In this document: one piece after another, positions 3,695 through 21,558 of the stretch | Layout: the number at the start of each line of letters is the position of its first letter | How positions within the stretch are numbered: the stretch's first letter is position 1 | Assembly (NCBI GenBank): GCA_047602285.1 | Contig: JASGHR010000001.1 | Location: 1,326,638 to 1,390,637, forward strand | Reading direction: 5' to 3' | Length of the DNA stretch: 64,000 bases | From: Arachnia sp. | GTDB taxonomy: Bacteria > Actinomycetota > Actinomycetes > Propionibacteriales > Propionibacteriaceae | Notes under the pieces: generated by a model | Told to the model about the DNA's origin: nothing | The model's database searches: none | What the model saw: only the letters and a program-made list of their open reading frames with translations | Position numbers and translations under genes: made by a program

Positions 3695-3942
3695 CCGTCG
3701 TATGGCTGATTGGGCTTGAGGCTGAAGCGGAGTAGGTCCTTGACCCTGGCCCTCAACGATCGCGCATCCTCCGAGGTTCCGCCGAGCCGCGTCGCGAACT
3801 CCCCCTCATCCACGGCCTCCAGCGCCTCAGTGAGCGAATTCGCCAGGAGAACCAGTTCGTCTCGTGTCGCCACGATCACAACTTCGTCGTCGAGGACCTC
3901 ATCCTCACCGACCCATGAAGAATCACGATGGAGTTGCCGCAT
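3691..3942 (-). CDS. hypothetical small acidic protein
   Basis: ORF 3691-3966 was trimmed to the ATG at 3942, which is preceded by GAGGTG at 6-nt spacing. 83 aa, acidic, with a helical-looking sequence. Confidence 0.45.
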   Translation of the reverse strand: MRQLHRDSSWVGEDEVLDDEVVIVATRDELVLLANSLTEALEAVDEGEFATRLGGTSEDARSLRARVKDLLRFSLKPNQPYDG

Positions 3943-4132
3943 CCGATTCACCTCGATCCAATTCAAGACGTAATGCTAGCCGCCGTCCCGAGCGGTCGCT
4001 TCAGCGCCCGCACCCCGCCAGCCTATGGCTACGGTGCTGCGCGCGAGGCCGAAGTCACCTCTCTGGCCAAGCCATCTGACCAGCGCTCGCGTCGGCGTGA
4101 CGCTGCTCCCGTCTTCCGCTCAGGCCGCCAGA

Positions 4133-7519: not shown

Positions 7520-8587
7520 CTAGTGTCCCGTGTTTGAAGTCTGTTTACGGTGGGCTTTGGTGAGGATGTCGTCTGCGGTTTTGGTCCACACGAATGGTTC
7601 GCAGCGTTCGTTCCAGCCATCGATGAAGGTCTCGATCGCGGTGACGAGTTCTTTGACGCTGGTGAAGGTGCCTCGGCGAATGGCTTGACGGGTGATGATC
7701 CCGAAGAAGATCTCGACCATGTTCAGCCACGACCCGGAGGTTGGGGTGAAGTGCATCGTGATCCGGGGGTTCTTCGCCAGCCAGGCCTTGATCTTGGGGT
7801 GCTTGTGCGTGGCGTAGTTGTCGGCCACCACGTGCAGCTTGACCCGAGGGTAGGTCTTCGCGGTGAGCTTGAGGAAGTCGAGGAACTCGGCATGGGTGTG
7901 GCGTTGGTAGCAGCGGTCGGTGACCTTCCCGGTCGCGACCTCGAGCGCGGCGAACAGGCTGGTGGTGCCGTTGCGGACGTAGTCGCGGGTGGCTCTTTCT
8001 GGCAACCCGGGTCGCAGCGGAAGGATCGGCGCGGTGCGGTCTAGGGCTTGGACCTGGGTCTTCTCGTCGACGCAGACCACGACCGCTTTCTCGGGCGGGT
8101 TCAGGTAGAGCCCCACCACATCGCGGACCTTTGCGTCTAGCTCGGGATCGGTGGAGAACTTGAACGTTCCACGCCGCCAGGGCTGCAGTTTCCACTTGCG
8201 CCAGATCCGGGCGACCTCACCAAAGGAGATCCCCAACTCCTGACCCAACAGCCGCGCCGACCAGTGCGTCACCCCCAACGAGGCCGGCGGCGGAGTCAAC
8301 GTCGCGACCACGACCGCGTTCTCATCGATCACCGCGGGGCGACCCGACCGAGCCAGATCACTCAACGCCTCGATACCACCGGCCTCGTAGCGAGACCGCC
8401 ACAGGTTCACCGTTGGACGCGATACCCCAACCTGCCGACCGATCTCGGTGTTCGACTCACCAGCGGCGGCCAACAATACGATCCGGGCCCGCTGGGCCAA
8501 CCCCGCCCCCACCGTCGAGGACCGGACAAGCGAGCTCAGCCTCGCCTCATCACCAGGACGCAGAACCAGCGGGGACGCTATCGACAT
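7520..8587 (-). CDS. IS630-family transposase
   Basis: The N-terminus shows the helix-turn-helix pattern ...RARIVLLAAAGESNTEIGRQVGVSRPTVNLWRSRYEAGG.... The C-terminal DDE region includes ...VVCVDEKTQVQAL..., ...LHVVADNYATHKH... and ...SGSWLNMVEIFF.... ATG at 8587. Stop TAG at 7520-7522 uses the duplicated TA. Confidence 0.85.
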   Translation of the reverse strand: MSIASPLVLRPGDEARLSSLVRSSTVGAGLAQRARIVLLAAAGESNTEIGRQVGVSRPTVNLWRSRYEAGGIEALSDLARSGRPAVIDENAVVVATLTPPPASLGVTHWSARLLGQELGISFGEVARIWRKWKLQPWRRGTFKFSTDPELDAKVRDVVGLYLNPPEKAVVVCVDEKTQVQALDRTAPILPLRPGLPERATRDYVRNGTTSLFAALEVATGKVTDRCYQRHTHAEFLDFLKLTAKTYPRVKLHVVADNYATHKHPKIKAWLAKNPRITMHFTPTSGSWLNMVEIFFGIITRQAIRRGTFTSVKELVTAIETFIDGWNERCEPFVWTKTADDILTKAHRKQTSNTGH

Positions 8588-8639
8588 ACCCCATTGTCTC
8601 AACCAACCACCGTAAACCTATTTACGACACGCGACACTA
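7521..8639 (-). mobile_element. IS630-family insertion sequence with TA target duplication
   Basis: The 1115-bp element (7523-8637) is flanked by TA at 7521-7522 and 8638-8639. The 31-nt imperfect terminal inverted repeats, GTGTCCCGTGT...TTTACGGTGG and the reverse complement of CCACCGTAAA...ACACGCGACAC, match 23/31. It carries a single transposase ORF. Confidence 0.85.
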
Positions 8640-8994: not shown

Positions 8995-9831
8995 TCACCT
9001 TCGTCTCGAATCCGTCCCCTCAGATGCCCGCGGTCCCCCATGATTCTCGCCCGGACCGTCAGATATGCCACCGGCACGCAGCAGTTCCACCAGGATCTCG
9101 TCGAGGGTCGCGACGGCCTGCGCCGTAGGCAGATCCACCGCGACGATGCCGTCCGCCCCATCTTCATACTCAAGCCCGACTGAACCGAGGGCTGAAACCA
9201 GCGCCTCATGCTGAGTCTCGTCAGAACAGGTGAGGACCCGAGTGTCGTGGCCGGCGCTGCGCACTTGGCGGACAACCAGCCTGGCCCCCATTCGAGACCG
9301 GACCTGCACCAGGTCGTACCGATGGAACCCCGAACGAGAGAACGGCACGCTCAGGATCTCGACGACGTCCTCCATGCCCGGTTCGTCGACTCGCCTCGCC
9401 CAGAGGTGCTCAAGAGAGTAGGGACGGCCCGGCATGAGGGCATAGGTCAGAGGGAAAATCCGAGGTCCGTCCTCCTGCGACACCTGCGGCCGAGCGTGGT
9501 TCAGCTGCCGGATAGGTTGCACCCAGCCGAGAAGCGCGTCCTCCCACGCCGCACTGAAGTCTGCTGCCGCCACCCGCCTCCCGGAACCGGTGGCCAGGAT
9601 CCGCGGAAGGTCGTCGATCCAGATGTCCGTCGTCTCGGGCGGCCTGGGCATCGGCGGCTCCCAGAACGCCGGCCGTGGCCGTGGATGCCCGTAGTCCACC
9701 ACCACATCAGCCCGATCGCCCTGCCGGTAGGCAATCACCCGCCGAGGTTCCCCGTCGATCAGCTCGACGAGGTAGCCAGACGGATCCTCCACCCCGCTGG
9801 CGACACTGACGAATTCCGATTCAGACGGCAT
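8995..9831 (-). CDS. hypothetical protein, C-terminal half DUF4265-like (immunity-associated)
   Basis: 278 aa. The C-terminal EHLWARRVD...ILSVPFSRSGFHRYDLVQV...SAGHDTRVL...AVDLP resembles DUF4265 as I recall it. It overlaps the upstream gene by 11 nt. Confidence 0.5.
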   Translation of the reverse strand: MPSESEFVSVASGVEDPSGYLVELIDGEPRRVIAYRQGDRADVVVDYGHPRPRPAFWEPPMPRPPETTDIWIDDLPRILATGSGRRVAAADFSAAWEDALLGWVQPIRQLNHARPQVSQEDGPRIFPLTYALMPGRPYSLEHLWARRVDEPGMEDVVEILSVPFSRSGFHRYDLVQVRSRMGARLVVRQVRSAGHDTRVLTCSDETQHEALVSALGSVGLEYEDGADGIVAVDLPTAQAVATLDEILVELLRAGGISDGPGENHGGPRASEGTDSRRR

Positions 9832-10582
9832 ATCCTGCCTTCCTCGTCGCGCTCACGATCCGCTCCGAGAGGGTGTGGATCGGCGGCCGCGCTGACGTGA
9901 TGCGCACGGCCCAGGCCACCCGATCAGATCGGGCATCCATCTCCACAACAGCACCGAAGTTCCTCAATTGGGCGACGCATTCGAGCTTGTCGAGCCCAGC
10001 CTCGTCGAAGCCCGCGGCTATCCAGGACGCGTTCAGGGAGTCGCGACGAATCACCTCCTTCACGACCGGCAGCCCCTCGCTGTCAGCCAGGACAACCCAC
10101 TGCCCGGGATACACGGTCGTGGTGTAGAAGGAGCTGGCGCACACCTCCATCTTCTCGTCGTCGATTCGCCGAGCAGGGATCTCCTCAAGGACGCCGACGA
10201 GCCCATGCCGCAAGTACACGAAGGTGTCGGCACGGTCTGCCCACACCGCCTCCGGGTGGGTCGACACAACCCACGTCCGGCGGGCGGCCTCTCTCCCGCG
10301 GCTCCACACAGCCTCGAACTCCTCCCTTGTGAGGAGATCTCGATACTCACCGAAGAGCGTTCCCTCCAGGAAGAAGCTGAGCGAGTCGGGCCCCTCACCC
10401 CAGAGGTAGGTCGGCCCGACATGTTCGCCACTCGACGAGACGTGCACCATGCCGTCACCGGTGAAACTCACACTCCGCGACAGACCTCCGTCAACCACCT
10501 CGTAGTACGAGGCCAGCACTCCAGTCCAGCGCGGCGGCCGGTACTCGACGAACCAAGAATCACCCGACGGCAACATCGTCAC
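9821..10582 (-). CDS. hypothetical protein (array member)
   Basis: 253-aa ORF with coding-like composition and a GTG start at 10582. Co-oriented and overlapping the next ORF. Confidence 0.5.
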   Translation of the reverse strand: MTMLPSGDSWFVEYRPPRWTGVLASYYEVVDGGLSRSVSFTGDGMVHVSSSGEHVGPTYLWGEGPDSLSFFLEGTLFGEYRDLLTREEFEAVWSRGREAARRTWVVSTHPEAVWADRADTFVYLRHGLVGVLEEIPARRIDDEKMEVCASSFYTTTVYPGQWVVLADSEGLPVVKEVIRRDSLNASWIAAGFDEAGLDKLECVAQLRNFGAVVEMDARSDRVAWAVRITSARPPIHTLSERIVSATRKAGYAV

Positions 10583-10874: not shown

Positions 10875-11291
10875 TCAACGCTCGTGTACCTCGACGGCAA
10901 GCTCCCCGCCCGCGACACGCGCAGACACGCTCAGGCCATCGAACGCAACGGTGAGTCCCGCAGCGCCACCGACCTCGTTGAGGTCCAGCACCGCCGAAGT
11001 CACAACCCGGCCCACCAGCCGGCACAACTCAGCCGACATCGGCGCCTGCTCCCAGAGCCCGACGCTCACCGCCAGCTCCCTTCGCTGGCTCGCGGACGCG
11101 CGAGCGAAAGGGTCGGACCACGGCTGTTCCGATAGTTCCAAAGTCCAGTCGGTCTTGACATCCACCGTCAACCAGGTGCCGTCATCCCACGTGAACTCGA
11201 TAGGGCCCGTCTCGCTCGCGGGCCCGCCTTCGAATCGGTGATGGAAGCGGCGAAGCGAGACGCAGCGGCGCCCTCGAAGCGAGTCAATCAA
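10875..11291 (-). CDS. hypothetical protein (array member)
   Basis: 138 aa. TTG start at 11291 overlaps the upstream stop (TTGA), so the start is uncertain. Confidence 0.45.
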   Translation of the reverse strand: MIDSLRGRRCVSLRRFHHRFEGGPASETGPIEFTWDDGTWLTVDVKTDWTLELSEQPWSDPFARASASQRRELAVSVGLWEQAPMSAELCRLVGRVVTSAVLDLNEVGGAAGLTVAFDGLSVSARVAGGELAVEVHER

Positions 11292-11455
11292 TGCGAAACA
11301 CCTCCGCTCAGCAGCGGCTGGGCATCCTCAGGATCGAACATCCCGGTTCGCAGTAGGCCGAGGAAACCCTCCGAGCGGTCATATTCCTGGTCAACCTCCT
11401 CGATCTGCCTCTGCAATAAACTCACAGTGGTAATCAGCCGCTTGGAGTCCGTCAC
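11288..11455 (-). CDS. hypothetical small protein
   Basis: The ORF was trimmed to the GTG at 11455, which forms a GTGA overlap with the stop of 11452-11658. About 55 aa. Confidence 0.35.
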   Translation of the reverse strand: MTDSKRLITTVSLLQRQIEEVDQEYDRSEGFLGLLRTGMFDPEDAQPLLSGGVSH

Positions 11456-11658
11456 AATCGAGTCGCCGCCTCTGCAAGCAGCCACTCAACGGCTTCGACT
11501 GGCACGTCGGCCTCAAACATCGTCACCGTACGTCGACCAGACTCGCCCTCCTCGAAGACCTCAGCCACCCGGAAGCCATCGCCCCTCGTGAGCTCGAGAG
11601 CCATTCCGTCCCGCTCGCCGACCGAGCTAGCAAGAATAAGCCGATATCCGGCGGTCAT
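11452..11658 (-). CDS. hypothetical small protein (immunity-like)
   Basis: ATG at 11658 is preceded by GGAGGTG at 5-nt spacing. The 68-aa translation starts MTAGYRLILASSVGERDGMALEL... Confidence 0.55.
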   Translation of the reverse strand: MTAGYRLILASSVGERDGMALELTRGDGFRVAEVFEEGESGRRTVTMFEADVPVEAVEWLLAEAATRL

Positions 11659-11806
11659 CGCAGCACCTCCGACCACCCCATGAAACCGCCATCGTCTTTT
11701 GATTCGCGTCCGACGCCCAGCGGAATCTCAGTTTCTGGCAGCCCTTCCGAGCGCGCCGGGCATCCGCACGCTGACCAGGTATACAGCTTGGTCACGAGCG
11801 AACCGT

Positions 11807-12754
11807 TCAGCCATACACTGGCGCGAGGGTGCCATCGAAGAGTCCTTCTATCGCAAGATCCCTCACGTCTGGATCACTACTCCTCAACGCCACCTCCCGA
11901 AGCTCGGCCCTGAACTCACGATGCCCCTGCGCCAGAAACTGCGCGCCACCGAAAACCCGCCAGTCATTCATATTGGCCGCCACCTGATCCATCAACACCG
12001 GAAGCAGGAACCTCTCCCGAGCATCGTATCCAATCCTACCCATAAGCACACTCACCCCACCGAGCCATCGATCTGACAACGACGCATCAACAAGGTCCTC
12101 CATAAGCGGAATAGTCACACTCGGCCCCAGCACCTTTAGCGCCGAGTAGGCCACAGAAGGCTCCTCATTCAGCACCTGACGCAGGAACGACACGACGCCG
12201 TCAAGATCCGACAACGCCTCCTCCCGCAAGCCGACGACCACCGACATACGATCAAGCGCCGAGGCAACCACGGACTCCACTGCCGAAGACCCATCCACCG
12301 GCCCCAAGGGCACCGACGACTCGACACCACTGGCACCTACGACAGCTCCCACACTCTGACGCACACCGTGATACCTCAGCACCTCACTTGCTCGCTTCTG
12401 AAGCTCAGGGTTCCCGACAGAAGCCTCCTCGACGGCCAACGCCAGCCCACTCTCCAACGTCGCACGAGGCGCAACACCGACCGCGAGGGTCGCCTCCGTG
12501 CCGTCTACATCAAGAACGGCCCTCGCAGCCAACAACGGAAGCAACTGCTTCACGACACCGCCGGGCGACAACATCGAAACCACCGCGTACAACGCATCCG
12601 ACGGCTGCTCCGAGAGCAGTCGTGTCAAGACACGCACACCCTCACTCGAATCAACCGTCCAGTCGGCCCTGCGCCGATAAAAGCCATCCAGAAGACCACG
12701 AGAGATCACACCAGCAGACTCCACCACTCGTACAATCGCTTTCACAACACACAC
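11807..12754 (-). CDS. candidate cognate immunity protein of the Rhs toxin (helical-repeat-like)
   Basis: This is the first ORF downstream of the Rhs stop (31-nt gap). About 315 aa, Leu/Ala/Val-rich with helical-repeat-like composition. GTG start at 12754 or 12745. Confidence 0.55.
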   Translation of the reverse strand: MCVVKAIVRVVESAGVISRGLLDGFYRRRADWTVDSSEGVRVLTRLLSEQPSDALYAVVSMLSPGGVVKQLLPLLAARAVLDVDGTEATLAVGVAPRATLESGLALAVEEASVGNPELQKRASEVLRYHGVRQSVGAVVGASGVESSVPLGPVDGSSAVESVVASALDRMSVVVGLREEALSDLDGVVSFLRQVLNEEPSVAYSALKVLGPSVTIPLMEDLVDASLSDRWLGGVSVLMGRIGYDARERFLLPVLMDQVAANMNDWRVFGGAQFLAQGHREFRAELREVALRSSDPDVRDLAIEGLFDGTLAPVYG

Positions 12755-12785
12755 CTTCCATATCGACGCAATCGGCGTCGAACCG

Positions 12786-15700
12786 CTACTTCTTGAAAGA
12801 TCTTTCCCATCGTATGGACATGATGGCCTGATCGAACTCGGAAACCATCAGTTCTCGAGTCGGATAAATCAGTATATGGCTAGAATCCTCAATAGTTGGG
12901 GCACTGACCCACTCCAAACCGGGCCCAAGATCCATGAGCGGAGCCTCCCAGATCCACCCGCTCGCCTGTATCATGTCCTTGTTCAGCGAGGCCGAAGCAC
13001 CCAGGATACCCGGATCCCCCGGCGCGAAGGGACCAACGATCTGACTGGCATCCTCCGAGGGAAGACCAAAATCCCTCATCGCACGTACCGGGCCAACGCG
13101 AGACGCGTTCCCGGCGCGATACATGATCTTACCCTCCATCTCTGCGTTACAGGATTGGATAGCGTGCCCCCGCGCCGCACAACGTTCTTCGTTTAGCCGA
13201 TCTCCAGATTCCTTCCACTGCTCTGCAAGACCGGCCTCATTCCAGATAAAGTCAGCCGCATCCGCCGCGTAGGATGCCAACCGGATATAAGGGTTAAGTT
13301 TGGGCAACAATTTAAGAACCATCGAGGGACCAAACCGCGGCCTCGCCGGCCTATTTGCGGGCCGCGTTTTCGGTTCTTGTACAGCTCGGGGCTTTACCGA
13401 CGGCAAATTTGCTTTTGTCTTCTCTATCTTTCGTCCACCAGTTGTGACGTAATGATTAGCGTCGGGGTTCTGGTGGTAGTTCCGAGGGTTGAGACCAGTG
13501 GCGTCATGCGAGTTGATCGGGTCCGCGGCCGTGTAGCCGTAGCCGTTCAACGTCTGTGTGTTCGCCGCATCCAAGACGGGATCGACGCTGAGGAACCGGC
13601 CCACCTTCGGGTTGTAGAGCCGCGCACCGGTCTGCACATACCCCGTCGTGGTGTCAGTCGGTCGGTCCAGATACGTGTGATCCGTCTGCCAGGTACCGAG
13701 CCCATCGATGCGGTTGCCGTACGGGTCGTGGTACCGCCACGTGGTCTTACTCAGATCACTCCAGTCGACGGCGACAGAAGCGGTACCCGTCTGATCGCCG
13801 TCGAGGGCCTGCAGCACCGCGGCCCCGACGCGCTGCGCCACAGACCTGCCGTTATGGCTGTAGAACCTCGTGCCGGTCTTGGTGCTCGTGCCGGTGAGCC
13901 TGAGCTCCCCCGCCGGGGTGTAGACCGTGCTGCCGTTCGGGTCCTTCCGCATCAAGATGCTTCCGCCGGCGCTGTACAGGTAGCTGGTGGTCTTCCCGCT
14001 CTTGCTCGTGCTCGCCACCTTGCCGAGCGTGTTCCACGCCAGCGACTCGGTGATGCCACCGGTGGTCGATGACGTGGTGTTGCCCGCGCTGTCATACGTG
14101 TAGGTGGTCGTCGTCCCTGTTCCGCCCGTGGGAGTCGAGGTCTGCGACGCAATCGCGTGCGCATGCCCCGTGACGCCCAGGGCATAGGTTGTGGTCGTGG
14201 TGGCCGCCGGGAGCTGCACCACCTTGTTCTTCGTCTCCTTGGTGCGCACCCCCGCGTCGTTGTGCGTCCACTGATGCCACATCGGCAGGAAGCCGTAGGT
14301 GGTGGAGGCCGTCGAGGACGGATTCGCCACGCAGTCGTCGTTGCTGGTCCAGGCATCCGTCAGACGGGCCCTGGTGTCGTAGCGGTAGCACATGGTGCGG
14401 ACCTTGGCCGGGCTATTGAAGTTCGCCGACTGAGCAGTGCGGACAATCTGGCCGGAGGCGTTTCGGACGTAGGTGAATGCCTGGATCTGCGGCCGGGTGG
14501 TCGCCCCGTTGAGGTAGGTGTTGTCGACGGCGAGGGTCTCCACGTTGTACGTGACGCTCTGAACGAGGCTGTCGCCCTCTCGCCCCACCGTCTGGGACGG
14601 GAGGCCGTGAGGTGTGTAGCTCGTCGAGTTCACGTACTTGTTCGTGCCCGTGGTCGCGTTCGGCAGGCCCTGGGGCGTGTAGGTGCGGGTCACGGTCTCC
14701 GCGGGCAGCCCGCCCAGCGCCGGGAGCGTCTGAGTGGCTACCTGGCCGGTGTTGGTGTAGGTGACCGAGGCGCTGTACGTGCCCGCGAGCGCTCCCTGGT
14801 TGGCGGGCACCACGAGGCTGCTGCCGGTGGGGCGCGCATAGGCGTCGTAGCCCGTGACCTTTTCGACGAACGGGTTCGCGGTGTCGCCGTCGATATACGA
14901 CTTCGTCTCGGTGAGCTGCCCCGGCTTGAGGGTGTCGAAGACCCACTCCCCGATCAGCTTGTCACCCGAACCACCGACCAGCTTGGTCATCCGGCCGAGC
15001 TTGTCGTAGGTGTACTTGAGAGTACCCGCGGTGCCGCGCGCATCGACGACGGTGGTCTTCTCCCCGAGATGGTTGTACGAAGTGTTCGTGGTTCCGGTGT
15101 CGGGATCGACAGCCTTGGTGCGCCGGCCACCTGCGTCGTAGGTGTAGTACCAGACTGCACCTATCGGATCGGTCAGCCTGACGAGCTGGCCGACGCCGTC
15201 GTAGGCGTAGCTTGTCGTGGTGAACGTGCCCCCGGAGACGACATTGCCGCTAACGGTGGGCGCAGTGACGTAGTCGAGCTTCTTGAGTGTCTGGCCAAGC
15301 CCGTTGACCACCGACGCCGTGATGGGCGCGGCTGCGGGCGGGAAGACCGTGGTCTGATCACCCGAGTAGACGGTCGTGGTACGTCGTGTCTCGGTGACCC
15401 CCTTGTAGGAGATGACGGTGGTCGGACGGCCCAGCGCATCGTAGGTGCTGGTGGTCCGGGAGTTGATGCCCGAATCGGCCGTGCTGATCCTCGTCTTAGC
15501 CGGATCCCCCGCCGTGTACCAGCGGTTGTTGGTGCGCACCGCCCAGCCGTGCGAGTCGTAGAACGTGTCGTCCACGATGCGTCCACCGCCGACGGCGCCG
15601 GTCTGCGTCTGGAGCAGCTGCCCGAAGGCGTCGTAGAGGGCGACGCTCGTCACCTGCGTCGGCGTCGTCCCGCTGATGGCCGTCGTGGTCTTGGTGGTGA

Positions 15701-18700
15701 TGGTCTCGTAGTCGGTGGGCGAGTTGGTGTAGGCGAAGGTCTGCGTCGCCGGGCCGCTCTTCGGGAAGCCCGGCTCCCAGAGGTCCGTGATTCTCCCCAG
15801 CGCGTCGTACGTCGCCTCGGTGATCCTGCCTGCGACGTCGACCTGCTTGAGGATCATGCCGTCCAGGTCATGGTGCGTCTCGGACGACTGCCCCAGCGCG
15901 TTGGTGACCGTGACCTTGGTCACGGGCCCGCCCGTGGCAGGCGTGTACGCGGTGGTGGACGTGCGGCCCGTGGTGTCGCTCGCCGACGTGAAGACGGTGC
16001 TGGTCAGCAACCGCCCGTAGGAATCGAAGGCCGCGGTGGACTTCGCCCACTCAGACGCTGCGACCGCCGTATCCGTGCGGGTCGGGTTGCCGATGCCGGG
16101 CACAGCTCCCAAGGTAGTTGAACCGTCGTAGTAGGTACGCGCCCCCGAGAGCAGCTTGCTGGTGGGCGCACCGCTGCTGGGACAGGCATCTGCGTATGTC
16201 GCCACCTCCGCAGGGGTCGCCAGGATGTTCCGTGATGTGTTCTCGGCATAGCTGGTGGTAGTACACGTCGATTCCGCTCCGCTGGCCAGCGTGGAGGCGG
16301 AGATCTCTCGTCCTCGCGCATCACGGGTATAGGTGACGGTCGAATTGAGCCACCCACCAGCCGCCGTGGCCGTGTAGCTGCGTTGCTTCGCCACCCCCGT
16401 CACACGGGCAACGAGCGAGCCGAGCCCGGTGCGCGCTCGGGTAGCTGTGGTGGCATAAGTCGCGAAGTCGGTGATGGTCTTCGCCGCCGGCGTGGTATCC
16501 GTCTCTTTGAGGAACGACTGCGACTCGTAGGCAGCGCCTGCGTACTGGTCGGAGTCGACGATCGTCTCCCCGCGAGAGTTCGTCACCGTAACGCTGCGGG
16601 TGCCCCCGGCCGAGAGCTTGTCACCGTTCATGCCACGTAGGTAGTAGGTCTTCGTCAGGGTACGGGCGTCTGCGGCGCCGTTCGATGAGTTGCTGGGATT
16701 CCCCGTAAGCGTGTTCACCTGGGCATAGCCGCGGAACTGGCTCCAGGTCCTCTCTCCGGCCTTCACCAGCTCGTTGTCGTCGAAGTGCCAAGCAGGGGTG
16801 CCCACGTACTGGTAGGTCGTGAGCTGGCCGGGTGACGCCGCCTGCGAGTCCTGCACCATCACCGAGGAGACGAGGTACTTGTGGAAGAAGTCGGTCTTCA
16901 TCGTGCCGTTCATGGGCCATCGGACCGGGAAGCAGCGCCGCGTGTTAGCCGAGAGATCTGTTGTGGACGGGACACTGCTCGCTGTGCAGTCCTTCGGCGT
17001 GTATGTCACCGACAGGATCGCGCCGTTCTCATCCTTGATCTGCACCAGACGCCACATCAGCATCCCGTGATAGCCCGAATACCCCGCCACGCGGTTGTCC
17101 AAGAGGTCTCCGCCGAATTCGACCGGGCCGCGAACGATGGATGCCCCCGAGGGGGTGTAGGTGGTGTGCTTGATCGATTGAAGCCACAGCGCGTCGTCAC
17201 CCAGGTCCGGATACGTCTGCGTCAGGTTCCAGACGTCACGCGTCACGAACGTACCCGCGGAATTACGCGCCTTGGTCGTGATGGCCGTGATCCGAAGCCG
17301 AGTCCAAAACGTGGGCGAAACAACGGTGCAAGCGCCATCGCCCTCACATCTCAGGTCCTGAGGGGTGTCCGGCCAGTGATCGGCGTTGGCGGGCGTGAAC
17401 TGGAGCGGGTCACAGGTGAACGAGGAGCTTGGAATGCAGCGCTCGGCGGCCGTGAACACCACCTGCGCCTCGGCGACCGTCCCGTAGACAGAGCCGCCGC
17501 TGTTACGCAAACCGTAGTCGATGCGGCTGGGCACACCGCCCCTGGTGTAGGCGACGCGAGACGTGCCGAGATTGGCCGAATAGTGGTTGGTCTCCTTCGA
17601 GTAGTAGTAGGCCATGGCGTTGCCGTGGACGTCCTCCACGTAGTCGAGATTCCATCTCCAACCCTGAACACAGCGCGAGGAAGCGAAGCCCGACGACGAG
17701 TAGCACGGGTCACCGGCGTGCGCTCCGTAGACGGGGACCGTCCACGTAGCACCGGTGAGCGTCTGATCCGTACGGCCCGGCAATGCCTCGGAGCCGAAAA
17801 GGTACTTCGTCCCATCCGGGGTCGTCAGCCGCCAGTGCTCTCCATCCTTGGCCCCGCTCGGCGCGCCGGTGAGGCGCTCGACACGGGTGCCATCGTCGGC
17901 GCGGAGCTTCCATACCCCGCTTGCGTCGTCTCGTACGAGCTCCCCCGAGTGCCCTCCGAAGTTGAGGAAAAGCGCCTCGCCCGCCCAGCACAGGTCTGCC
18001 GTGTTGCCGGCACCACCAGCAGGGTGGTCCTTGCACGTGACGTAGCGCCGCTCGATGAAGCCGGCTTCGTAGGACCAGCCTTGGCCGATCAAGCCCGGCT
18101 GATTGTTCGACGAAGCCACTCGTCCATCGACGACGGAGGACGAGTAGGTCAGCGCGACGTCCGGAACGAGCCCTCCGGTGAGACCCAGCGACGGAACACC
18201 CAGGGGATAGGCCCAGGTGAAATCACCGGTAGAAGACCCCGCTGACCACGATGACGACGGCGCAAGAGGCTGGGCTGCAAACGAACCCGACGCCCCGTCA
18301 ACGCCTGCCGCCACCGCAAAGACAGTGGCCCCGGCGCCTGCACTGCTCTTGGGGAGCGCAGCCACCAGACTCTTCTCGTCGCCCTCTCGGCTCGTCTCCA
18401 GAGACTTGACCGGCACTGAGCACTCGGGATCGTCGGGGCTCGTCGCGTAGCAAGACGGCAGCTCGACCACTCGCAGTCGGTCCTCAGCGGCCGCAGCGAA
18501 ACCCGCATCAGCCAGGGCCGCCGTGTCGATACGAACCTCGGCGCCCTGAGGGGCATCGACGGTGAACGCGAGCCCCACTCCTCCGGCGTCGATCACCTCC
18601 GCTGTGGGCAGCACCTCGACCTTCGCGGACTCCGGACCCCTCAGCTCGATGGGTGTGCGTCCGGCCCGCACCCACGCCTTCCGGCCCTTGCTACCGTCCG

Positions 18701-18992
18701 TCTTCACCGTGAAATGGCCCGACACTACGGGCTTCACACCCGCGGGCTTGGACGCCTTGGGGATCTTCAGCTTCAGCGGTTCACCCTCGGAAGCCGTCAG
18801 ATGAGGGAGCTTCTTCCACTCTTGCGCCTTTGGTCGCCAGTCAGCAGGCGTCTTCGACGGGTCAGCCGAAGCCGGCGACACACCACCGCCCAGAACGAGA
18901 GCAAGAACCAGGGCGCCGATAACACCCACACGCCACCGGGCACGCCCCAGCCGCGCGCGACGATCACTACGCGAAGTATTCATTTTGGGCAA
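12786..18992 (-). CDS. Rhs/YD-repeat polymorphic toxin with Sec signal peptide and variable C-terminal toxin module
   Basis: 2068 aa. The N-terminal signal is ...GALVLALVLGGGVSPASA. An SpvB/TcC-like N-domain is present (GVPSLGLTGGLVPDVALTYSS...GQGWSY). There are many YD repeats (YDALGRITDL, YDAFGQLLQT, YTYDAGGRRTKAVDP, YTYDKLGRMTK). The Rhs core ends at ...GARLYNPKVGRFLSVDPV...DPINSHDATGL. Confidence 0.9.
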   Translation of the reverse strand: MPKMNTSRSDRRARLGRARWRVGVIGALVLALVLGGGVSPASADPSKTPADWRPKAQEWKKLPHLTASEGEPLKLKIPKASKPAGVKPVVSGHFTVKTDGSKGRKAWVRAGRTPIELRGPESAKVEVLPTAEVIDAGGVGLAFTVDAPQGAEVRIDTAALADAGFAAAAEDRLRVVELPSCYATSPDDPECSVPVKSLETSREGDEKSLVAALPKSSAGAGATVFAVAAGVDGASGSFAAQPLAPSSSWSAGSSTGDFTWAYPLGVPSLGLTGGLVPDVALTYSSSVVDGRVASSNNQPGLIGQGWSYEAGFIERRYVTCKDHPAGGAGNTADLCWAGEALFLNFGGHSGELVRDDASGVWKLRADDGTRVERLTGAPSGAKDGEHWRLTTPDGTKYLFGSEALPGRTDQTLTGATWTVPVYGAHAGDPCYSSSGFASSRCVQGWRWNLDYVEDVHGNAMAYYYSKETNHYSANLGTSRVAYTRGGVPSRIDYGLRNSGGSVYGTVAEAQVVFTAAERCIPSSSFTCDPLQFTPANADHWPDTPQDLRCEGDGACTVVSPTFWTRLRITAITTKARNSAGTFVTRDVWNLTQTYPDLGDDALWLQSIKHTTYTPSGASIVRGPVEFGGDLLDNRVAGYSGYHGMLMWRLVQIKDENGAILSVTYTPKDCTASSVPSTTDLSANTRRCFPVRWPMNGTMKTDFFHKYLVSSVMVQDSQAASPGQLTTYQYVGTPAWHFDDNELVKAGERTWSQFRGYAQVNTLTGNPSNSSNGAADARTLTKTYYLRGMNGDKLSAGGTRSVTVTNSRGETIVDSDQYAGAAYESQSFLKETDTTPAAKTITDFATYATTATRARTGLGSLVARVTGVAKQRSYTATAAGGWLNSTVTYTRDARGREISASTLASGAESTCTTTSYAENTSRNILATPAEVATYADACPSSGAPTSKLLSGARTYYDGSTTLGAVPGIGNPTRTDTAVAASEWAKSTAAFDSYGRLLTSTVFTSASDTTGRTSTTAYTPATGGPVTKVTVTNALGQSSETHHDLDGMILKQVDVAGRITEATYDALGRITDLWEPGFPKSGPATQTFAYTNSPTDYETITTKTTTAISGTTPTQVTSVALYDAFGQLLQTQTGAVGGGRIVDDTFYDSHGWAVRTNNRWYTAGDPAKTRISTADSGINSRTTSTYDALGRPTTVISYKGVTETRRTTTVYSGDQTTVFPPAAAPITASVVNGLGQTLKKLDYVTAPTVSGNVVSGGTFTTTSYAYDGVGQLVRLTDPIGAVWYYTYDAGGRRTKAVDPDTGTTNTSYNHLGEKTTVVDARGTAGTLKYTYDKLGRMTKLVGGSGDKLIGEWVFDTLKPGQLTETKSYIDGDTANPFVEKVTGYDAYARPTGSSLVVPANQGALAGTYSASVTYTNTGQVATQTLPALGGLPAETVTRTYTPQGLPNATTGTNKYVNSTSYTPHGLPSQTVGREGDSLVQSVTYNVETLAVDNTYLNGATTRPQIQAFTYVRNASGQIVRTAQSANFNSPAKVRTMCYRYDTRARLTDAWTSNDDCVANPSSTASTTYGFLPMWHQWTHNDAGVRTKETKNKVVQLPAATTTTTYALGVTGHAHAIASQTSTPTGGTGTTTTYTYDSAGNTTSSTTGGITESLAWNTLGKVASTSKSGKTTSYLYSAGGSILMRKDPNGSTVYTPAGELRLTGTSTKTGTRFYSHNGRSVAQRVGAAVLQALDGDQTGTASVAVDWSDLSKTTWRYHDPYGNRIDGLGTWQTDHTYLDRPTDTTTGYVQTGARLYNPKVGRFLSVDPVLDAANTQTLNGYGYTAADPINSHDATGLNPRNYHQNPDANHYVTTGGRKIEKTKANLPSVKPRAVQEPKTRPANRPARPRFGPSMVLKLLPKLNPYIRLASYAADAADFIWNEAGLAEQWKESGDRLNEERCAARGHAIQSCNAEMEGKIMYRAGNASRVGPVRAMRDFGLPSEDASQIVGPFAPGDPGILGASASLNKDMIQASGWIWEAPLMDLGPGLEWVSAPTIEDSSHILIYPTRELMVSEFDQAIMSIRWERSFKK
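12789..13490 (-). other. C-terminal toxin module of the Rhs protein (234 aa after the DPxxxxDxxGL core end), fold unassigned
   Basis: The module starts right after DPINSHDATGL. Hand-counted GC is 53/120 (44%) for 12781-12900, against 72/120 (60%) for 15001-15120 in the Rhs core and 95/120 (79%) for 39001-39120 in pntA. Confidence 0.7.
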
Positions 18993-21558
18993 ACCTCACT
19001 CGGTCGATGGTGATCGTGACGCTGGTCTCGGCAGTGATGGTGAACATGTTCACCTGTCCTCCAGCCATGGGCACGGTGACGGCGGTGGCATCTGCGGAAT
19101 CGCACCCCTTCGGCTCGACGGCATAGTAGGCAAGCGAACCGGTGCCCGTGTAGGCGGTAGGCACGCAGGAAGGACCGAATCCCGTGTCGTCGCCACCCTG
19201 CGGGGTCCCAAGAACATGCCCATTGATCTGGAAGGCGACGGCCTTGCCGCTCGGGACGGTGATGTCAGATTGAACGACCCACGGCAGTTCCTCGCCGGGC
19301 GGAGCCCCCGCCTTACTGGGTGGTGTGAACGTCAGCGTGACCGGTTGTCCTGGGCTGAGTACCACCATCAGCTTCTTCCCGCCGGACGCATTCGCGTCGG
19401 TCGTGACGGACGCGGACCCGGTCGGCGACAGGTCCTCGGCTTCATAGGTCTTGACGAGAACCGGAGCCGCATTGAGCTTGAACGCGTAGTCCTTCACGCT
19501 AGAGACCTGACCGTTCAAGCTCACCGCGACGACGCGCAACTGCGCCTGCGCCCCGTTCGCCAGCGAAGGCGGAATGGTGAGAGTCGCCAGACCCGATGTC
19601 GCCTTCGCATAGCCGGTCACGGCGCCCGTCGTGCTATTCGTCGTACAACGATCGCTGGTTGTGGAGGGGACAACACCGTTCCAGGAATAGTTGAACCCGA
19701 GCACCTGCGGGTCTGTATCCGCCACCAGAAGTTTGCCGTCGGCTCGCTGATCCGTGTAGGACGCGCCGGCAGGGTGCGTGAACGACTTCACGGTAGGAGC
19801 GAGCGGCGCTCCGAGATCCACTCGGAAGTTGTACGCGGAGGTCCACGCCGAGCTGAGCGCAGTTCCGTCGGTAACGACGCTCGTCGCCTGAACCTTCAAG
19901 TAGTACTCCCCTTCGGCCAAAGCCGGGGATGGGGTTGCTGTGCCAACCGCATTCGAGGCCACAGGATCGCTGTAGTAGGTTCCGACGACGGCATCATTGG
20001 ACTTCCGGTAAACCCGGAAGGCCAGTTTCACCTTGGTAGTCGTCAAGTTGTTGTCCAGCGCCTTGGCTTCCAGCTTCGGAGTCCCCGAGCTCGCGTACAC
20101 AACGCCGTTGCAGACCAGCTTGGAGGTGCTGGCCAATCCGACAGCCGTGGGGGTCCCCGGTGGGAAGCCGTAGGTGATGGAGAGCGTCGGGTCGTTCTCG
20201 AACTTCTTCCATGCATACGGGTCGGTCTCAGTCGCGGCCCGGAGATGGAAGCCTGCCTTGCTGGCCTTGTCGTCGACCAGGTCCTGCACGTATGCAGCGA
20301 CGTCCGTGTCATCGAACGTGACACTCACCTTGCCCGACGAGGTCGAAGCTCGGTCAACCTCGGCGCCCTTCGGGCCCGGCCAGTCCGCTGACGCGCTGAA
20401 ACTGCCGGTGTTCTTCCCAAGGATGACGGCCGTCGCGGCGTTCCCTGCGGCGTGCGTCTGCTCCACGGTGACAGACGCCTTCTTGATCGTGGCCTTGGAG
20501 CCATCGGGACGTGGCTTGAGCTGGCTGATATCGAAATCGAAGTAGCTGCGCGCCTTGTAGGCGGGCGAACATCCCGTCCAGTTGCAGTACCCGACCCGCA
20601 GCACGTCGGAGGTGTTCGCGTAGTTCGACTGGGTATCGCGCACCACAAGGAAGGAGTTCTTCGCCTTGCCGAGCGACGGGTCGATGTAGACCGGGTAGAC
20701 AACGTCTTGCCCTCGGAGATCTGCCGCATCGGGAAGGAGCTGCAGCGTCACCGACTGCGCGCCTGCAGCATGACCGCCACCCCGGGCCGCCGGTCCCTCA
20801 GATGCGAGCGTTTCGATCAGCGCCGCAGACTCCCCTGGCGACTCAGTGCTCGGAACACCACTCGAGCCAGGGGTTGCATCCCAGATCAACGGGGCCGTCG
20901 ATCGGAACACCGTCTCACCCGAGGACGTCACAGCCTGCCCAGAGCCATCCTCCGCCAACGAGTAGGACAGCCCGGACGTCTCGATCCGGAAGTCCAGCGC
21001 ATCCAGCTCTGAATTCAGCGCAGCAGTCCGGTCCTTCACGACAAGGACCTCGGAGAACATCTCGGCATGGGCCGAGACCACGAGGTCGACGCCGGGAAGC
21101 ACATCCCCGTAGGTCAGCTGATCCCCGTCGACGGACGGCGCGGGCAGCACGAACGGTGCGTGCAGGACCAGCTCACCACTTCCGCTCGACACGGTGGCGA
21201 GCGCCGTGTCGCCACCGCTGGAGAAGTCCATGTCAACCGCAGCCGCTACGGGGGCGAGGCGTCCGTCCTTCGGCACAAGGGTGGTGTCAACGTCGACGAA
21301 CCCACCGCCATCACGCACACGCACAGCTTCTCGATCGACGGTCAAAGTTACCGTCCCATCGGGGTTGGCGACACTGATGCTGTGTTCATCAGTCAACTCT
21401 GCGATCTCAACGGCACTATTGGTAGCCACCGCCTCCGCTATCGCTGCCTCGATCGGGTCCGTTGACGACGGGTCAGCTATCGCCGAAGATGCGAGCCCCA
21501 TCGACGCGAACCCCAGCAAGAGAGAACCAACAGTTGCCCGACGCCACACAGTTGTCAC
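18967..21558 (-). CDS. secreted DNRLRE-domain / CBM-like accessory protein upstream of rhs
   Basis: GTG start at 21558 follows GAAGGG. The signal peptide is ...LLLGFASMGLASSAIA. A DNRLRE-like segment is present (LRVGYCNW...ARSYFDFDISQLK). The C-terminal YEAEDLSPTGSASVTTDANASGGKKL resembles CBM6/35 sugar-binding modules. It overlaps the rhs start by 26 nt. Confidence 0.65.
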   Translation of the reverse strand: MTTVWRRATVGSLLLGFASMGLASSAIADPSSTDPIEAAIAEAVATNSAVEIAELTDEHSISVANPDGTVTLTVDREAVRVRDGGGFVDVDTTLVPKDGRLAPVAAAVDMDFSSGGDTALATVSSGSGELVLHAPFVLPAPSVDGDQLTYGDVLPGVDLVVSAHAEMFSEVLVVKDRTAALNSELDALDFRIETSGLSYSLAEDGSGQAVTSSGETVFRSTAPLIWDATPGSSGVPSTESPGESAALIETLASEGPAARGGGHAAGAQSVTLQLLPDAADLRGQDVVYPVYIDPSLGKAKNSFLVVRDTQSNYANTSDVLRVGYCNWTGCSPAYKARSYFDFDISQLKPRPDGSKATIKKASVTVEQTHAAGNAATAVILGKNTGSFSASADWPGPKGAEVDRASTSSGKVSVTFDDTDVAAYVQDLVDDKASKAGFHLRAATETDPYAWKKFENDPTLSITYGFPPGTPTAVGLASTSKLVCNGVVYASSGTPKLEAKALDNNLTTTKVKLAFRVYRKSNDAVVGTYYSDPVASNAVGTATPSPALAEGEYYLKVQATSVVTDGTALSSAWTSAYNFRVDLGAPLAPTVKSFTHPAGASYTDQRADGKLLVADTDPQVLGFNYSWNGVVPSTTSDRCTTNSTTGAVTGYAKATSGLATLTIPPSLANGAQAQLRVVAVSLNGQVSSVKDYAFKLNAAPVLVKTYEAEDLSPTGSASVTTDANASGGKKLMVVLSPGQPVTLTFTPPSKAGAPPGEELPWVVQSDITVPSGKAVAFQINGHVLGTPQGGDDTGFGPSCVPTAYTGTGSLAYYAVEPKGCDSADATAVTVPMAGGQVNMFTITAETSVTITIDRVRFAQNEYFA

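What the first reader, a model, noticed from the sequence alone, without database searches (positions are those of the whole stretch)
11807..13490. Rhs C-terminal toxin module of unknown fold with a sharp GC drop, plus its candidate 315-aa immunity protein
The 234 residues after DPINSHDATGL match no toxin domain I can name. Coding GC falls abruptly at the core/tip junction: hand counts give 44% for 12781-12900 against 60% for 15001-15120 inside the core. This is the expected signature of a recently swapped toxin tip.

The tip consists of a K/P/R-rich linker followed by a globular part. The globular part has an MYRAG...(about 40 aa)...GASAS...(about 33 aa)...IED arrangement. This is faintly reminiscent of the R / S-x-S / E layout of R-S-E ADP-ribosyltransferases, but that is only a weak pattern-level hint.

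The adjacent ORF (11807-12754) is unusually large for an immunity protein and looks helical-repeat-like.
Basis: partly seen in the sequence, partly recalled or inferred. Interest (0 to 1): 0.65.

Follow-up and report, generated by a model that had tools for sequence, protein, structure and literature searches.

The report
Rhs toxin tip: divergent Tse2-like domain
The end of this large secreted Rhs protein is a very divergent copy of a known bacterial toxin domain (the Tse2 family, which has an ADP-ribosyltransferase-like fold), and the gene next to it encodes the matching protective immunity protein, so this is an ordinary but previously unrecognisable member of a known toxin-immunity system.

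Summary
A 2068-aa Rhs protein ends its conserved core at DPINSHDATGL (residue 1834). A 234-aa tip follows. GC falls from 65% to 55% and GC3 from about 0.85 to 0.58.

The tip is not of unknown fold. Single-sequence searches found nothing: Pfam, NCBIfam, PDB, and phmmer against 1.84 billion proteins. A weak six-frame hit in a related genome opened a family of more than 175 proteins. Most are annotated PF18648, "Tse2 ADP-ribosyltransferase toxin".

- A profile built without our sequence hits only this tip in the whole 3.9-Mb genome (E 3e-7).
- AlphaFold2 folds tip residues 120-234 at pLDDT 86-98, and the best PDB match is Tse2 (weak, E 0.14).
- The family's conserved Arg, Asp, Ser and His are kept.
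- The near-universal A-D-G-x-D loop is shortened and lacks the Asp.

The downstream ORF is really 312 aa. Its C-terminal half belongs to an all-helical family with no curated model. That family sits directly after the toxin in all 14 other loci with downstream DNA. Its profile also hits only this ORF in the genome (E 6e-7).

The closest Rhs ortholog shares the core but carries a different tip.

Verdict: a divergent new member of a known kind, of moderate-to-low interest.

The parts
12786..18992 (-). Rhs/YD-repeat polymorphic toxin gene (2068 aa from TTG; the public call is 2065 aa). It has an N-terminal Sec-type signal peptide (by eye: RRARLGRARW-hydrophobic-ASA|D).
   Evidence: RHS_repeat E 7.5e-12. 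TIGR03696 core 1756-1834 and YD repeats. Precomputed PF05593 and PF25023.
13491..13523 (-). End of the Rhs core, DPINSHDATGL (residues 1824-1834). This is a DATGL variant of the DPxGL self-cleavage motif. The presumed release point is after L1834.
   Evidence: TIGR03696 match ends at 1834. The ortholog G294 has DPINSSDPTGL at the same place.
13326..13490 (-). Tip residues 1-55: K/P/R-rich disordered linker. The first ~13-17 aa (NPRNYHQNPD) are still shared with the ortholog, so the recombination breakpoint lies just after them.
   Evidence: AF2 pLDDT 37-53 with no secondary structure. Ortholog alignment stops at query residue 317 of 534.
13140..13325 (-). Tip residues 56-117: helical region of unknown role, with no homologs found.
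   Evidence: AF2 helices 56-60, 66-85, 88-106 and 111-117 at pLDDT 47-65. No family sequence covers it.
12789..13139 (-). Tip residues 118-234 (protein 1952-2068): divergent Tse2-family, ADP-ribosyltransferase-like toxin domain. It keeps R1970, D1974, G1998-A-S2000, H2039, Y2043, F2053 and W2062. It lacks the family's A-D-G-x-D and has S-APTIED instead.
   Evidence: Family HMM built without it: 27.4 bits; the only hit among 46,667 genome ORFs, E 3.3e-7. BLASTP 2e-7 to a PT-HINT-borne tip. AF2 pLDDT 86-98. Foldseek rank 1 is Tse2 5ako_C. Conservation table.
12754..12759 (-). Shine-Dalgarno-like GGAAGG, 8 nt before the GTG start at 12745 of the immunity gene.
   Evidence: Read from the sequence. 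The public gene call is 312 aa.
11807..12745 (-). Immunity gene (312 aa plus stop), starting 41 nt after the rhs stop.
   Evidence: Only self found in 5.8 billion proteins by word search. All-alpha AF2 model.
11846..12226 (-). Conserved immunity module (about residues 177-303 of the 315-aa frame): helical repeats ending in SSDPDVRD.
   Evidence: BLASTP 1e-12 to the gene after the G078 toxin. Immunity HMM built without it: 28.1 bits; the only real hit in the genome, E 5.6e-7. hhalign probability 95%, E 3e-8. AF2 pLDDT 78-94.
12227..12745 (-). N-terminal half of the immunity protein: helical and specific to this genome. It may be a decayed duplicate of the module, but this is unproven.
   Evidence: BLASTP E 0.02-0.03. 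hhalign E 0.12, collinear over 109 columns but not significant. AF2 pLDDT 35-77.

Best explanation
This is a Sec-exported Rhs (YD-repeat) polymorphic toxin of an Arachnia-like actinobacterium. Its shell ends at DATGL (residue 1834), where Rhs proteins normally cleave themselves.

The released 234-aa tip has three parts: a disordered basic linker, a poorly predicted helical segment, and a 115-aa toxin domain. The toxin domain is a far-diverged member of the Tse2 family (Pfam PF18648, ADP-ribosyltransferase clan). By analogy with Tse2, it most likely acts in the cytoplasm of a target bacterium as an NAD-dependent enzyme that arrests growth. The candidate active-site residues are R1970, S2000 and H2039.

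The producer is protected by the 312-aa protein encoded 41 nt downstream. Its C-terminal helical-repeat module is the conserved binding partner of this toxin clade and probably blocks the active site.

Tip and immunity gene form one cassette of foreign, lower GC (55-60% against 70% for the genome). It was recombined onto the core just after NPRNYHQNPD.

Shown:
- the Rhs architecture
- the family assignment by profile
- the conserved toxin-immunity adjacency
- the tip swap

Inferred:
- cleavage at DATGL
- the delivery route
- ADP-ribosyltransferase chemistry
- immunity by direct binding
For: Rhs architecture.

Family link for the tip:
- BLASTP 2e-7 to the C-terminal tip of a PT-HINT protein in G078.
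- Relatives of that tip reach PF18648 above its cut-off: the Kribbella Rhs tip scores 36.3 bits, and several standalone toxins 27-37 bits.
- A profile search returned 175 proteins, mostly with precomputed PF18648 and NCBI names 'Tse2 family ADP-ribosyltransferase toxin'.
- An HMM of 120 of them, ours excluded, matches tip residues 1946-2069 end to end (HMM 21-144 of 147) at 27.4 bits. It is the only hit among 46,667 ORFs of the genome, E 3.3e-7.
- The family profile's only PDB hit is Tse2 5ako_C, E 0.0015. The alignment puts Tse2 T79-S80 on the family's A-S of G-A-S-T-F. T79A/S80A abolishes Tse2 toxicity (PMC3325213).
- AF2 gives pLDDT 86-98 for the domain, and Foldseek rank 1 of 350,542 chains is Tse2.

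Immunity:
- Homologous genes lie directly after the toxin in 14 of 14 other loci with downstream DNA. Six of these are independent test loci at E 1e-26 to 1e-40.
- These loci span three kinds of carrier: Rhs, Rhs+PT-HINT and standalone scaffolds. They come from Actinomycetota, Bacillota, a cyanobacterium (Planktothricoides) and unclassified metagenome contigs.
- The immunity profile hits only the adjacent ORF in this genome, E 5.6e-7. hhalign gives 95%.

Tip swap.
Against: - Pfam's own PF18648 model does not detect the tip at any threshold. phmmer with the tip alone found nothing in 1.84 billion proteins.
- The Foldseek match to Tse2 is weak (E 0.14, TM 0.25/0.36).
- The tip lacks the family's most conserved acidic residue. 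This is the Asp of A-D-G, 98% conserved and also present in Tse2 as Q-D-S. The loop that carries it is 4 residues shorter.
- Several other near-invariant positions differ: T167A, F168S, T207L, G232F.
- To my knowledge, ADP-ribosyltransferase activity and the target of Tse2 itself rest mainly on structural similarity (Robb 2016, cited in PMC6099711 and PMC10281587; I could not read the primary paper).
- The immunity family is unrelated to Tsi2, so the blocking mechanism is only an analogy.
Confidence: 0.8

Rival explanations
1. The domain has the Tse2 fold but has lost the family's chemistry. Without the conserved Asp, and with a shortened loop, it is an inactive or decaying tip kept only as a recombination substrate, with its immunity gene along for the ride.
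For: The A-D-G-x-D motif (98/98/90% conserved) is missing. Five other near-invariant positions are substituted. The immunity C-terminal motif is also altered (DPDVRDLA instead of DPDIREVGEDF).
Against: - Both genes are intact, long open frames. The tip is on the full-length, signal-bearing Rhs, not an orphan fragment.
- R, D, S, H, Y, F and W of the core are retained.
- AF2 is very confident in the fold.
- An E-D pair (E2035, D2036) sits in the shortened loop and could substitute.
- The immunity gene has a good ribosome-binding site.
Confidence: 0.12
2. The domain is toxic, but not as a protein- or nucleic-acid-modifying ADP-ribosyltransferase. It might instead be an NAD+ glycohydrolase that depletes NAD, or act by stoichiometric binding to an essential target.
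For: - No substrate of any Tse2-family protein was found in the literature I could search.
- Other ART-clan interbacterial toxins are NADases: Tse6 is listed as an NAD(P)+ glycohydrolase in PMC6099711.
- The altered acidic loop here could change the reaction outcome.
Against: - Nothing here bears directly on the chemistry.
- Pfam and NCBI name the family as ADP-ribosyltransferase toxins.
- Reviews report that Tse2 causes quiescence (bacteriostasis) rather than lysis. That is compatible with either mechanism.
Confidence: 0.25
3. The 312-aa ORF is not the cognate immunity protein. One of the small ORFs further downstream (74 aa at 11452-11676, 65 aa at 11288-11485, or 138 aa at 10875-11291) protects against this tip.
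For: Typical immunity proteins are small. The array downstream contains many candidate immunity genes, including DUF4265 x2 and HEAT_2.
Against: - The C-half of the 312-aa protein is homologous to the gene that directly follows the toxin in 14 of 14 other loci.
- It is the only match to that family in the genome.
- It shares the low-GC3 signature of the tip: 0.66 against 0.75-0.80 for the array genes.
Confidence: 0.04
4. The similarity to the Tse2 family is a chance or compositional match, and the tip really is a new fold.
For: The curated Pfam model, single-sequence searches and the Foldseek E-value are all non-significant.
Against: - The independent family HMM gives E 3e-7 genome-wide with a full-length collinear alignment.
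- A second, independent profile for the partner immunity family hits the very next gene.
- Tse2 is rank 1 of 350,542 PDB chains, and the next hit is ten-fold worse.
Confidence: 0.03

Closest known systems
Tse2 of Pseudomonas aeruginosa (PA2702; PDB 5AKO) and the Pfam family PF18648 ADPRTs_Tse2 / NCBI 'Tse2 family ADP-ribosyltransferase toxin'
   Same: - Same domain family by profile.
- Predicted mixed beta/alpha fold of ~115-140 aa.
- Conserved Arg, Asp, G-x-S and His-x-x-x-Tyr-Pro positions. The Ser aligns with S80, and Tse2 T79A/S80A loses toxicity.
- Cytoplasm-acting toxin encoded with a downstream immunity gene.
   Different: - It is delivered as the C-terminal tip of a Sec-exported Rhs protein in a Gram-positive actinobacterium. 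Tse2 is a free, Hcp-dependent T6SS substrate.
- It falls below Pfam's detection.
- It lacks the conserved Asp of the A-D-G / Q-D-S position, and its loop is 4 (versus the family) or 2 (versus Tse2) residues shorter.
- Its immunity protein is unrelated to the 77-aa Tsi2.
Rhs-borne and PT-HINT-borne Tse2-family tips in Kribbella deserti (L021), Arachnia propionica (L019, L020) and an Actinomycetota MAG (L018)
   Same: - Same tip family fused to YD-repeat scaffolds.
- Same helical immunity family directly downstream.
- In Kribbella the same canonical Rhs core junction is followed by a helical linker.
   Different: - Only 25-32% identical to our domain.
- They keep the A-D-G-x-D motif.
- The A. 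propionica and MAG versions use a PT-HINT domain instead of the Rhs core junction.
- Their immunity proteins are 154-184 aa, not 312.
WapA of Bacillus subtilis and other Gram-positive Sec-dependent Rhs/YD contact-dependent inhibition toxins (from my own knowledge: Koskiniemi et al. 2013)
   Same: - Signal peptide plus YD-repeat shell plus polymorphic C-terminal toxin plus adjacent immunity gene.
- Tips differ between close relatives.
   Different: WapA tips characterised so far are tRNases. Cell-wall anchoring and contact dependence were not examined here.
R-S-E (cholera-toxin-like) ADP-ribosyltransferases
   Same: The order of conserved residues along the chain is Arg, then a Ser-containing G-A-S-T motif, then an acidic loop.
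   Different: - No significant sequence or structure match to any R-S-E enzyme was obtained.
- The acidic motif is D-G-x-D in the family and absent at that position here.
- An invariant His, not part of the R-S-E triad, is the most conserved residue.

Membership tests
Rhs / YD-repeat polymorphic toxin | RHS/YD repeats forming the shell | tested here: met
   PF05593, 5 stretches, E 7.5e-12. TIGR01643 E 3e-11. PF25023 precomputed.
Rhs / YD-repeat polymorphic toxin | Rhs-associated core (TIGR03696) ending in a DPxGL-type motif before the tip | tested here: met
   TIGR03696 scores 52.5 bits against a cut-off of 32.5, over residues 1756-1834. The motif reads DATGL (Pro replaced by Ala). Self-cleavage was not tested.
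Rhs / YD-repeat polymorphic toxin | C-terminal tip that differs between orthologous cores, with its own immunity gene | tested here: met
   G294 ortholog: 66% identity up to residue ~1851, then an unrelated tip. Other genus hits stop at 299-302 of the 534-aa query. Immunity homology.
Tse2 family ADP-ribosyltransferase toxin (Pfam PF18648) | Score above Pfam's gathering cut-off (26.6 bits) | tested here: not met
   No hit at E<=1 for the tip or the domain alone. No candidate in the six-frame genome search at E<=10.
Tse2 family ADP-ribosyltransferase toxin (Pfam PF18648) | Significant full-length match to a profile of accepted members | tested here: met
   HMM from 120 proteins (most with PF18648, ours excluded): 27.4 bits, HMM 21-144 of 147, the only hit in the genome, E 3.3e-7.
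Tse2 family ADP-ribosyltransferase toxin (Pfam PF18648) | Fold like the Tse2 crystal structure (5AKO) | tested here: inconclusive
   Foldseek rank 1 is 5ako_C, but E 0.14, probability 0.51, TM 0.25/0.36. The query included the 115-aa non-domain part.
Tse2 family ADP-ribosyltransferase toxin (Pfam PF18648) | Conserved Arg (96%), Asp (98%), G-A-S (99%) and His (100%) positions | tested here: met
   Tip R136, D140, G164-A-S166 and H205 are present. Tse2 aligns R, D, G-T-S and H at the same columns.
Tse2 family ADP-ribosyltransferase toxin (Pfam PF18648) | Conserved acidic residue after the fourth strand (A-D-G-x-D; Q-D-S in Tse2) | tested here: not met
   The Asp and Gly columns (98% each) fall in a gap of our sequence. 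The fifth residue after G-L is Ala. E201-D202 lie 4-5 residues further on in a shortened loop.
Tse2 family ADP-ribosyltransferase toxin (Pfam PF18648) | NAD-dependent toxic activity neutralised by the partner protein | not testable with these tools
   Needs expression and biochemical assays.
- A different Arg is conserved.
- The Ser is conserved.
- There is no E-x-E.
- No R-S-E enzyme appeared in the PDB sequence or fold searches.
Tsi2 immunity protein | Small (~77 aa) acidic helical dimer encoded after tse2 | tested here: not met
   The partner is 312 aa, and the family norm is 152-184 aa. There was no Pfam or NCBIfam hit and no Tsi2 chain among the Foldseek matches.
Helical immunity family of Tse2-family toxins, with no curated model (defined here) | Profile match, position directly after the toxin, and a C-terminal D-P-D-[IV]-R-E-x-[GA]-E-D-F motif | tested here: met
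   The C-half scores 28.1 bits, E 5.6e-7 genome-wide. hhalign gives 95%. The gene starts 41 nt after the rhs stop. The motif reads SDPDVRDLAIEG, so it is only partly kept.

The most novel reading that the evidence does not exclude
The ~160-aa helical protein ending in DPDIREVGEDF is an undescribed immunity family. It partners most non-Pseudomonas Tse2-family toxins, from cyanobacteria to actinobacteria, and has no Pfam or NCBIfam model.

This Rhs tip is a functional offshoot of that system. Its remodelled acidic loop (A-D-G-x-D replaced by a shorter A-P-T-I-E-D) changes substrate or chemistry. The matching immunity protein has acquired a second, N-terminal helical half, possibly a decayed duplicate, to cope with the change.
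Probability: 0.25. Interest if true: 0.5.

Novelty: new member of a known kind. Interest (0 to 1): 0.3.

Why it matters
- It turns an apparent orphan toxin into an assignable one. It also shows how: single-sequence searches of billions of proteins failed, while one weak six-frame hit in a related genome opened the family.

- It documents that Tse2-family domains are used as polymorphic tips on Sec-dependent Rhs proteins of Gram-positive actinobacteria. They also occur on Rhs+PT-HINT proteins and as free two-gene modules.

- It identifies a widespread partner immunity family that curated libraries do not cover. That family could be added to annotation resources and used to find further toxin variants.

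- The tip is a natural variant lacking the family's best-conserved Asp. Because the biochemical target of Tse2 is still unsettled, this variant could help define which residues matter.

None of this overturns current understanding.

Tried and rejected
Searches that found nothing or led nowhere:
- Pfam and NCBIfam on the tip, the domain alone and the immunity protein: nothing.
- phmmer of the tip against PDB sequences: only noise.
- phmmer of the tip against 1.84 billion representatives: 0 hits.
- Word-indexed search of the tip inside full-length Rhs proteins, and of the immunity protein: only self.
- Two-sequence profile against PDB: noise.
It worked only with 4 closer sequences.
- Look-up of P0027 (Streptomyces) failed.
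- The Tse2 structure paper (Robb 2016) is not held, so what it shows is taken from reviews.

Ideas tested and not supported:
- Duplication of the immunity module: BLASTP E 0.02-0.03 and hhalign E 0.12 are not significant. I do not claim it.
- Foldseek of the immunity model gave only generic helical-repeat matches: designed repeats, 14-3-3, TPR, HEAT.
- NADAR as a recurrent second immunity. One NADAR gene follows the immunity gene in L018. No NADAR was seen in the regions examined after the other loci, so it is not a feature of the system.

Full report
**What is there**

ORF 12786..18992 on the minus strand encodes a 2068-aa protein.
- Pfam finds RHS repeats.
- NCBIfam finds YD repeats and the Rhs-associated core TIGR03696 at residues 1756-1834. 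The core ends with the L of DPINSHDATGL.
- The N-terminus reads as a Sec signal peptide (basic stretch, hydrophobic core, ASA|D). This is by eye only.
- Exactly 234 residues follow the core (window 12789-13490).
- It is the only Rhs core and the only copy of this tip in the 3.94-Mb single-contig genome.

**The GC drop**

- Overall the tip is 55.1% GC, the core 65.4% and the genome 69.9%.
- Third-position GC falls from 0.82-0.90 in codons 1381-1800 to 0.57-0.65 after codon 1860.
- The downstream ORF shares the signature, with GC3 0.66. Genes further along the array have 0.75-0.80.

**The tip swap**

I searched the last 534 residues against 67 other genomes of the genus.
- The closest ortholog (G294, ORF 2097 aa, 66% identity) aligns only to query residue 317, which is 17 residues past the core.
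- Two others (G366, G300) stop at 299-302.
- The G294 sequence reads ...DPINSSDPTGLNPRLYHQNPDSPW..., then continues into an unrelated tip.

So the breakpoint lies just after NPRNYHQNPD, where GC3 steps down.

**What the tip is: searches that failed**

Direct searches all found nothing:
- Pfam and NCBIfam.
- PDB sequences.
- phmmer against 1.84 billion representative proteins: 0 hits at E<=0.001.
- A region-restricted search of 5.8 billion proteins: self only.

**What the tip is: the lead that opened the family**

A six-frame search of 400 genomes of the family gave one weak hit (E 0.0013) in G078. That ORF is a pretoxin-HINT domain followed by a C-terminal tip.
- The tip aligns with our residues 115-233: BLASTP 2e-7, with shared GNAS, R..DFG, VGP, GAS, H..YPT and WER.
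- It has a sub-threshold Pfam hit to PF18648 ADPRTs_Tse2.

A two-sequence profile then found further members:
- two genomes of the same genus, later named as Arachnia propionica;
- a Kribbella Rhs protein;
- a standalone gene.

The Kribbella tip passes Pfam's cut-off for PF18648, at 36.3 bits against 26.6.

Pattern scans of genome and metagenome collections added nine loci. A 10-sequence profile search returned 175 proteins, most with precomputed PF18648. Several are named 'Tse2 family ADP-ribosyltransferase toxin' by NCBI.

**What the tip is: tests of membership**

- An HMM built from 120 of these proteins, with ours left out, aligns to residues 1946-2069 over HMM positions 21-144 of 147 at 27.4 bits.
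- Against all 46,667 stop-to-stop ORFs of the genome it hits only this protein, E 3.3e-7.
- Pfam's own model still does not see it.

I therefore file it as a divergent relative, not a curated member.

**Structure**

- AlphaFold2 with a 127-sequence alignment gives pLDDT 86-98 for tip residues 120-234. That domain is predicted as six strands and two helices.
- Residues 1-59 are essentially disordered.
- Helices at 56-117 have low confidence.
- Foldseek against 350,542 PDB chains ranks Tse2 from the Tse2-Tsi2 complex (5ako_C) first. The statistics are weak (E 0.14, probability 0.51, TM 0.25/0.36), and the next hits are ten-fold worse and unrelated.
- The family profile's only PDB sequence hit is also Tse2, E 0.0015.

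**Residues**

Across 126 relatives the most conserved positions, in tip numbering, are:
- R136 (96%)
- D140 (98%)
- G164-A-S166-T-F (99% for G and S)
- G178
- A-D-G-x-D after the fourth strand (98/98/98/-/90%)
- H205 (100%)
- T207, Y209, P210, F219, W228

Our tip keeps R136, D140, G164, A165, S166, G178, H205, Y209, P210, F219 and W228.

It lacks the A-D-G-x-D. From G-L to the invariant His there are 12 residues (EWVSAPTIEDSS), against 16 in the family and 14 in Tse2. The fifth residue after G-L is Ala instead of Asp.

In the HMMER alignment Tse2 reads GTSVF against the family's GASTF. Allowing for the 21-residue tag of the crystallised chain, this places T79-S80 on the A-S positions. Li et al. 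showed that Tse2 T79A/S80A is non-toxic yet stable and secreted (PMC3325213). So our S2000 is at a position where mutation abolishes Tse2 toxicity.

- The Ser is correct.
- The Arg of MYRAG is Ala in 87% of relatives. The real conserved Arg is in GPVR.
- IED sits in the shortened loop, not at the conserved Asp.

**What is known about the family**

- Tse2 is an H1-T6SS effector of P. aeruginosa. [quoted passage not shown]
- Its structure resembles NAD-dependent ADP-ribosylating toxins, and Tsi2 occludes the putative active site. This comes from reviews PMC6099711 and PMC10281587 citing Robb et al. 2016.
- Pfam lists ADPRTs_Tse2 among the ADP-ribosyltransferase families (PMC7955679).
- I found no paper naming a substrate. 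The primary structure paper is not held.

**The immunity protein: gene and homology**

- The ORF has GGAAGG 8 nt before GTG 12745. That start gives 312 aa, matching the public gene call.
- Its residues 166-300 align with the 154-aa gene directly after the G078 toxin: BLASTP 1e-12, shared ...S.DPD[IV]R....

**The immunity protein: synteny**

The same kind of gene follows the toxin in every other locus with downstream DNA:
- G421
- the MAG
- both A. propionica genomes (one also has an orphan second copy)
- Kribbella
- Brevibacillus
- two metagenome contigs

Six further loci were fetched for standalone toxins. Each has a 152-169-aa gene directly downstream. All six match the immunity HMM at E 1e-26 to 1e-40.

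That makes 14 of 14 loci. They span three scaffold types. The named ones come from Actinomycetota, Bacillota and a cyanobacterium (Planktothricoides); the rest are unclassified metagenome contigs.

**The immunity protein: profile tests**

- The HMM built without our protein scores its C-half at 28.1 bits. It finds nothing else significant in the genome, E 5.6e-7.
- hhalign gives 95% probability, E 3e-8.

Two independent profiles, for toxin and for immunity, each have a single hit in 3.9 Mb, and those hits are adjacent genes. That is the strongest argument for the pairing.

**The immunity protein: fold and family status**

- The family has no Pfam or NCBIfam model, only faint HEAT hints.
- AF2 predicts 17 helices. 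pLDDT is 78-94 for the C-half and 35-77 for the N-half.
- Foldseek returns only generic helical-repeat proteins, and no Tsi2.
- The N-half (about 160 aa) has no counterpart in relatives. A decayed tandem duplicate is possible: BLASTP E 0.02-0.03, and a collinear hhalign alignment at E 0.12. This is not significant.

**Scaffolds carrying this tip family**

- Canonical Rhs core: this window and Kribbella.
- Rhs repeats plus PT-HINT: A. propionica and the MAG.
- Free genes of 120-180 aa in metagenomes and named cyanobacterial genomes.
- One free gene lies next to a WXG100_2 gene.

**Mechanism**

The most likely sequence of events is:
1. Sec export.
2. Self-cleavage at DATGL.
3. Entry of the tip into a neighbouring cell.
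4. NAD-dependent modification by the Tse2-like domain, or possibly NAD hydrolysis, causing growth arrest.
5. Protection of the producer by tight binding of the helical C-half of the 312-aa protein.

The architecture, family assignment, synteny and cassette exchange are shown. The cleavage, delivery, chemistry and mode of inhibition are inferred.

The missing Asp is the main reason for caution about activity.

**Verdict**

This is a real and correctly located feature. It is a divergent new member of the known Tse2 toxin family on an Rhs carrier, with an immunity family that has no curated model but is widely conserved. Interest is moderate to low.

Noticed in passing
window 8995-9831 (-) and 9821-10582 (-): Two adjacent paralogous genes carry DUF4265 (E 1.5e-10 and 0.037). 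They lie in the co-oriented array downstream of the Rhs cassette and are likely orphan immunity genes.
   Followed up: partly
window 6058-6648 (-) and 7520-8602 (-): A 196-aa HEAT_2 repeat protein (E 2e-13) lies beyond an IS630-family transposase (DDE_3 plus HTH). Both are in the same array, and the HEAT protein may be another helical-repeat immunity gene.
   Followed up: partly
window 11452-11676 (-), 11288-11485 (-), 10875-11291 (-): Three small ORFs (74, 65 and 138 aa) directly follow the immunity gene, with overlapping or near-overlapping start and stop codons. None has a Pfam match.
   Followed up: partly
L018 4859-5437 (same DNA as L003 436-984): In the Actinomycetota MAG a NADAR-domain gene (E 1.7e-48) sits between the Tse2-type immunity gene and the next orphan PT-HINT toxin cassette. 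NADAR proteins are ADP-ribose-removing enzymes. No NADAR was seen in the regions examined after the other toxin loci.
   Followed up: partly
L025, L026, L027: Three standalone Tse2-family toxin genes lie immediately after a long acyl-CoA dehydrogenase gene. The immunity gene is seen in L026 and L027; the L025 contig ends right after the toxin. This is a conserved chromosomal context in an unidentified lineage.
   Followed up: no
L032 2410-2898: A WXG100_2 gene lies just upstream of a standalone Tse2-family toxin and its immunity gene. This suggests type VII secretion as another delivery route.
   Followed up: no
L021 about 3650-3980 (Kribbella deserti Rhs): Between the Rhs core and the Tse2-like domain there is a ~110-aa strongly amphipathic, Val/Lys/Ile-rich helical segment. 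Our tip has a shorter helical segment at the same place. It may be a translocation helper.
   Followed up: no
L022 3860-4303 (Brevibacillus migulae): The Tse2-like gene is truncated after LPDGLAVIADDYD, while its immunity gene is intact. This is a decayed toxin with a retained immunity gene.
   Followed up: no
window 18967-21558 (-): An 863-aa protein with a signal-peptide-like N-terminus is encoded just upstream, and its stop overlaps the start of rhs by 26 nt. There is no confident Pfam domain.
   Followed up: no
L034 (G294), C-terminal ~120 aa of the orthologous Rhs: The orthologous Rhs of a sister species carries a different tip, unidentified here, ending ...GEYISMFPTKYNGHWAKAVSFYVR. A 283-aa ORF follows it.
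   Followed up: no
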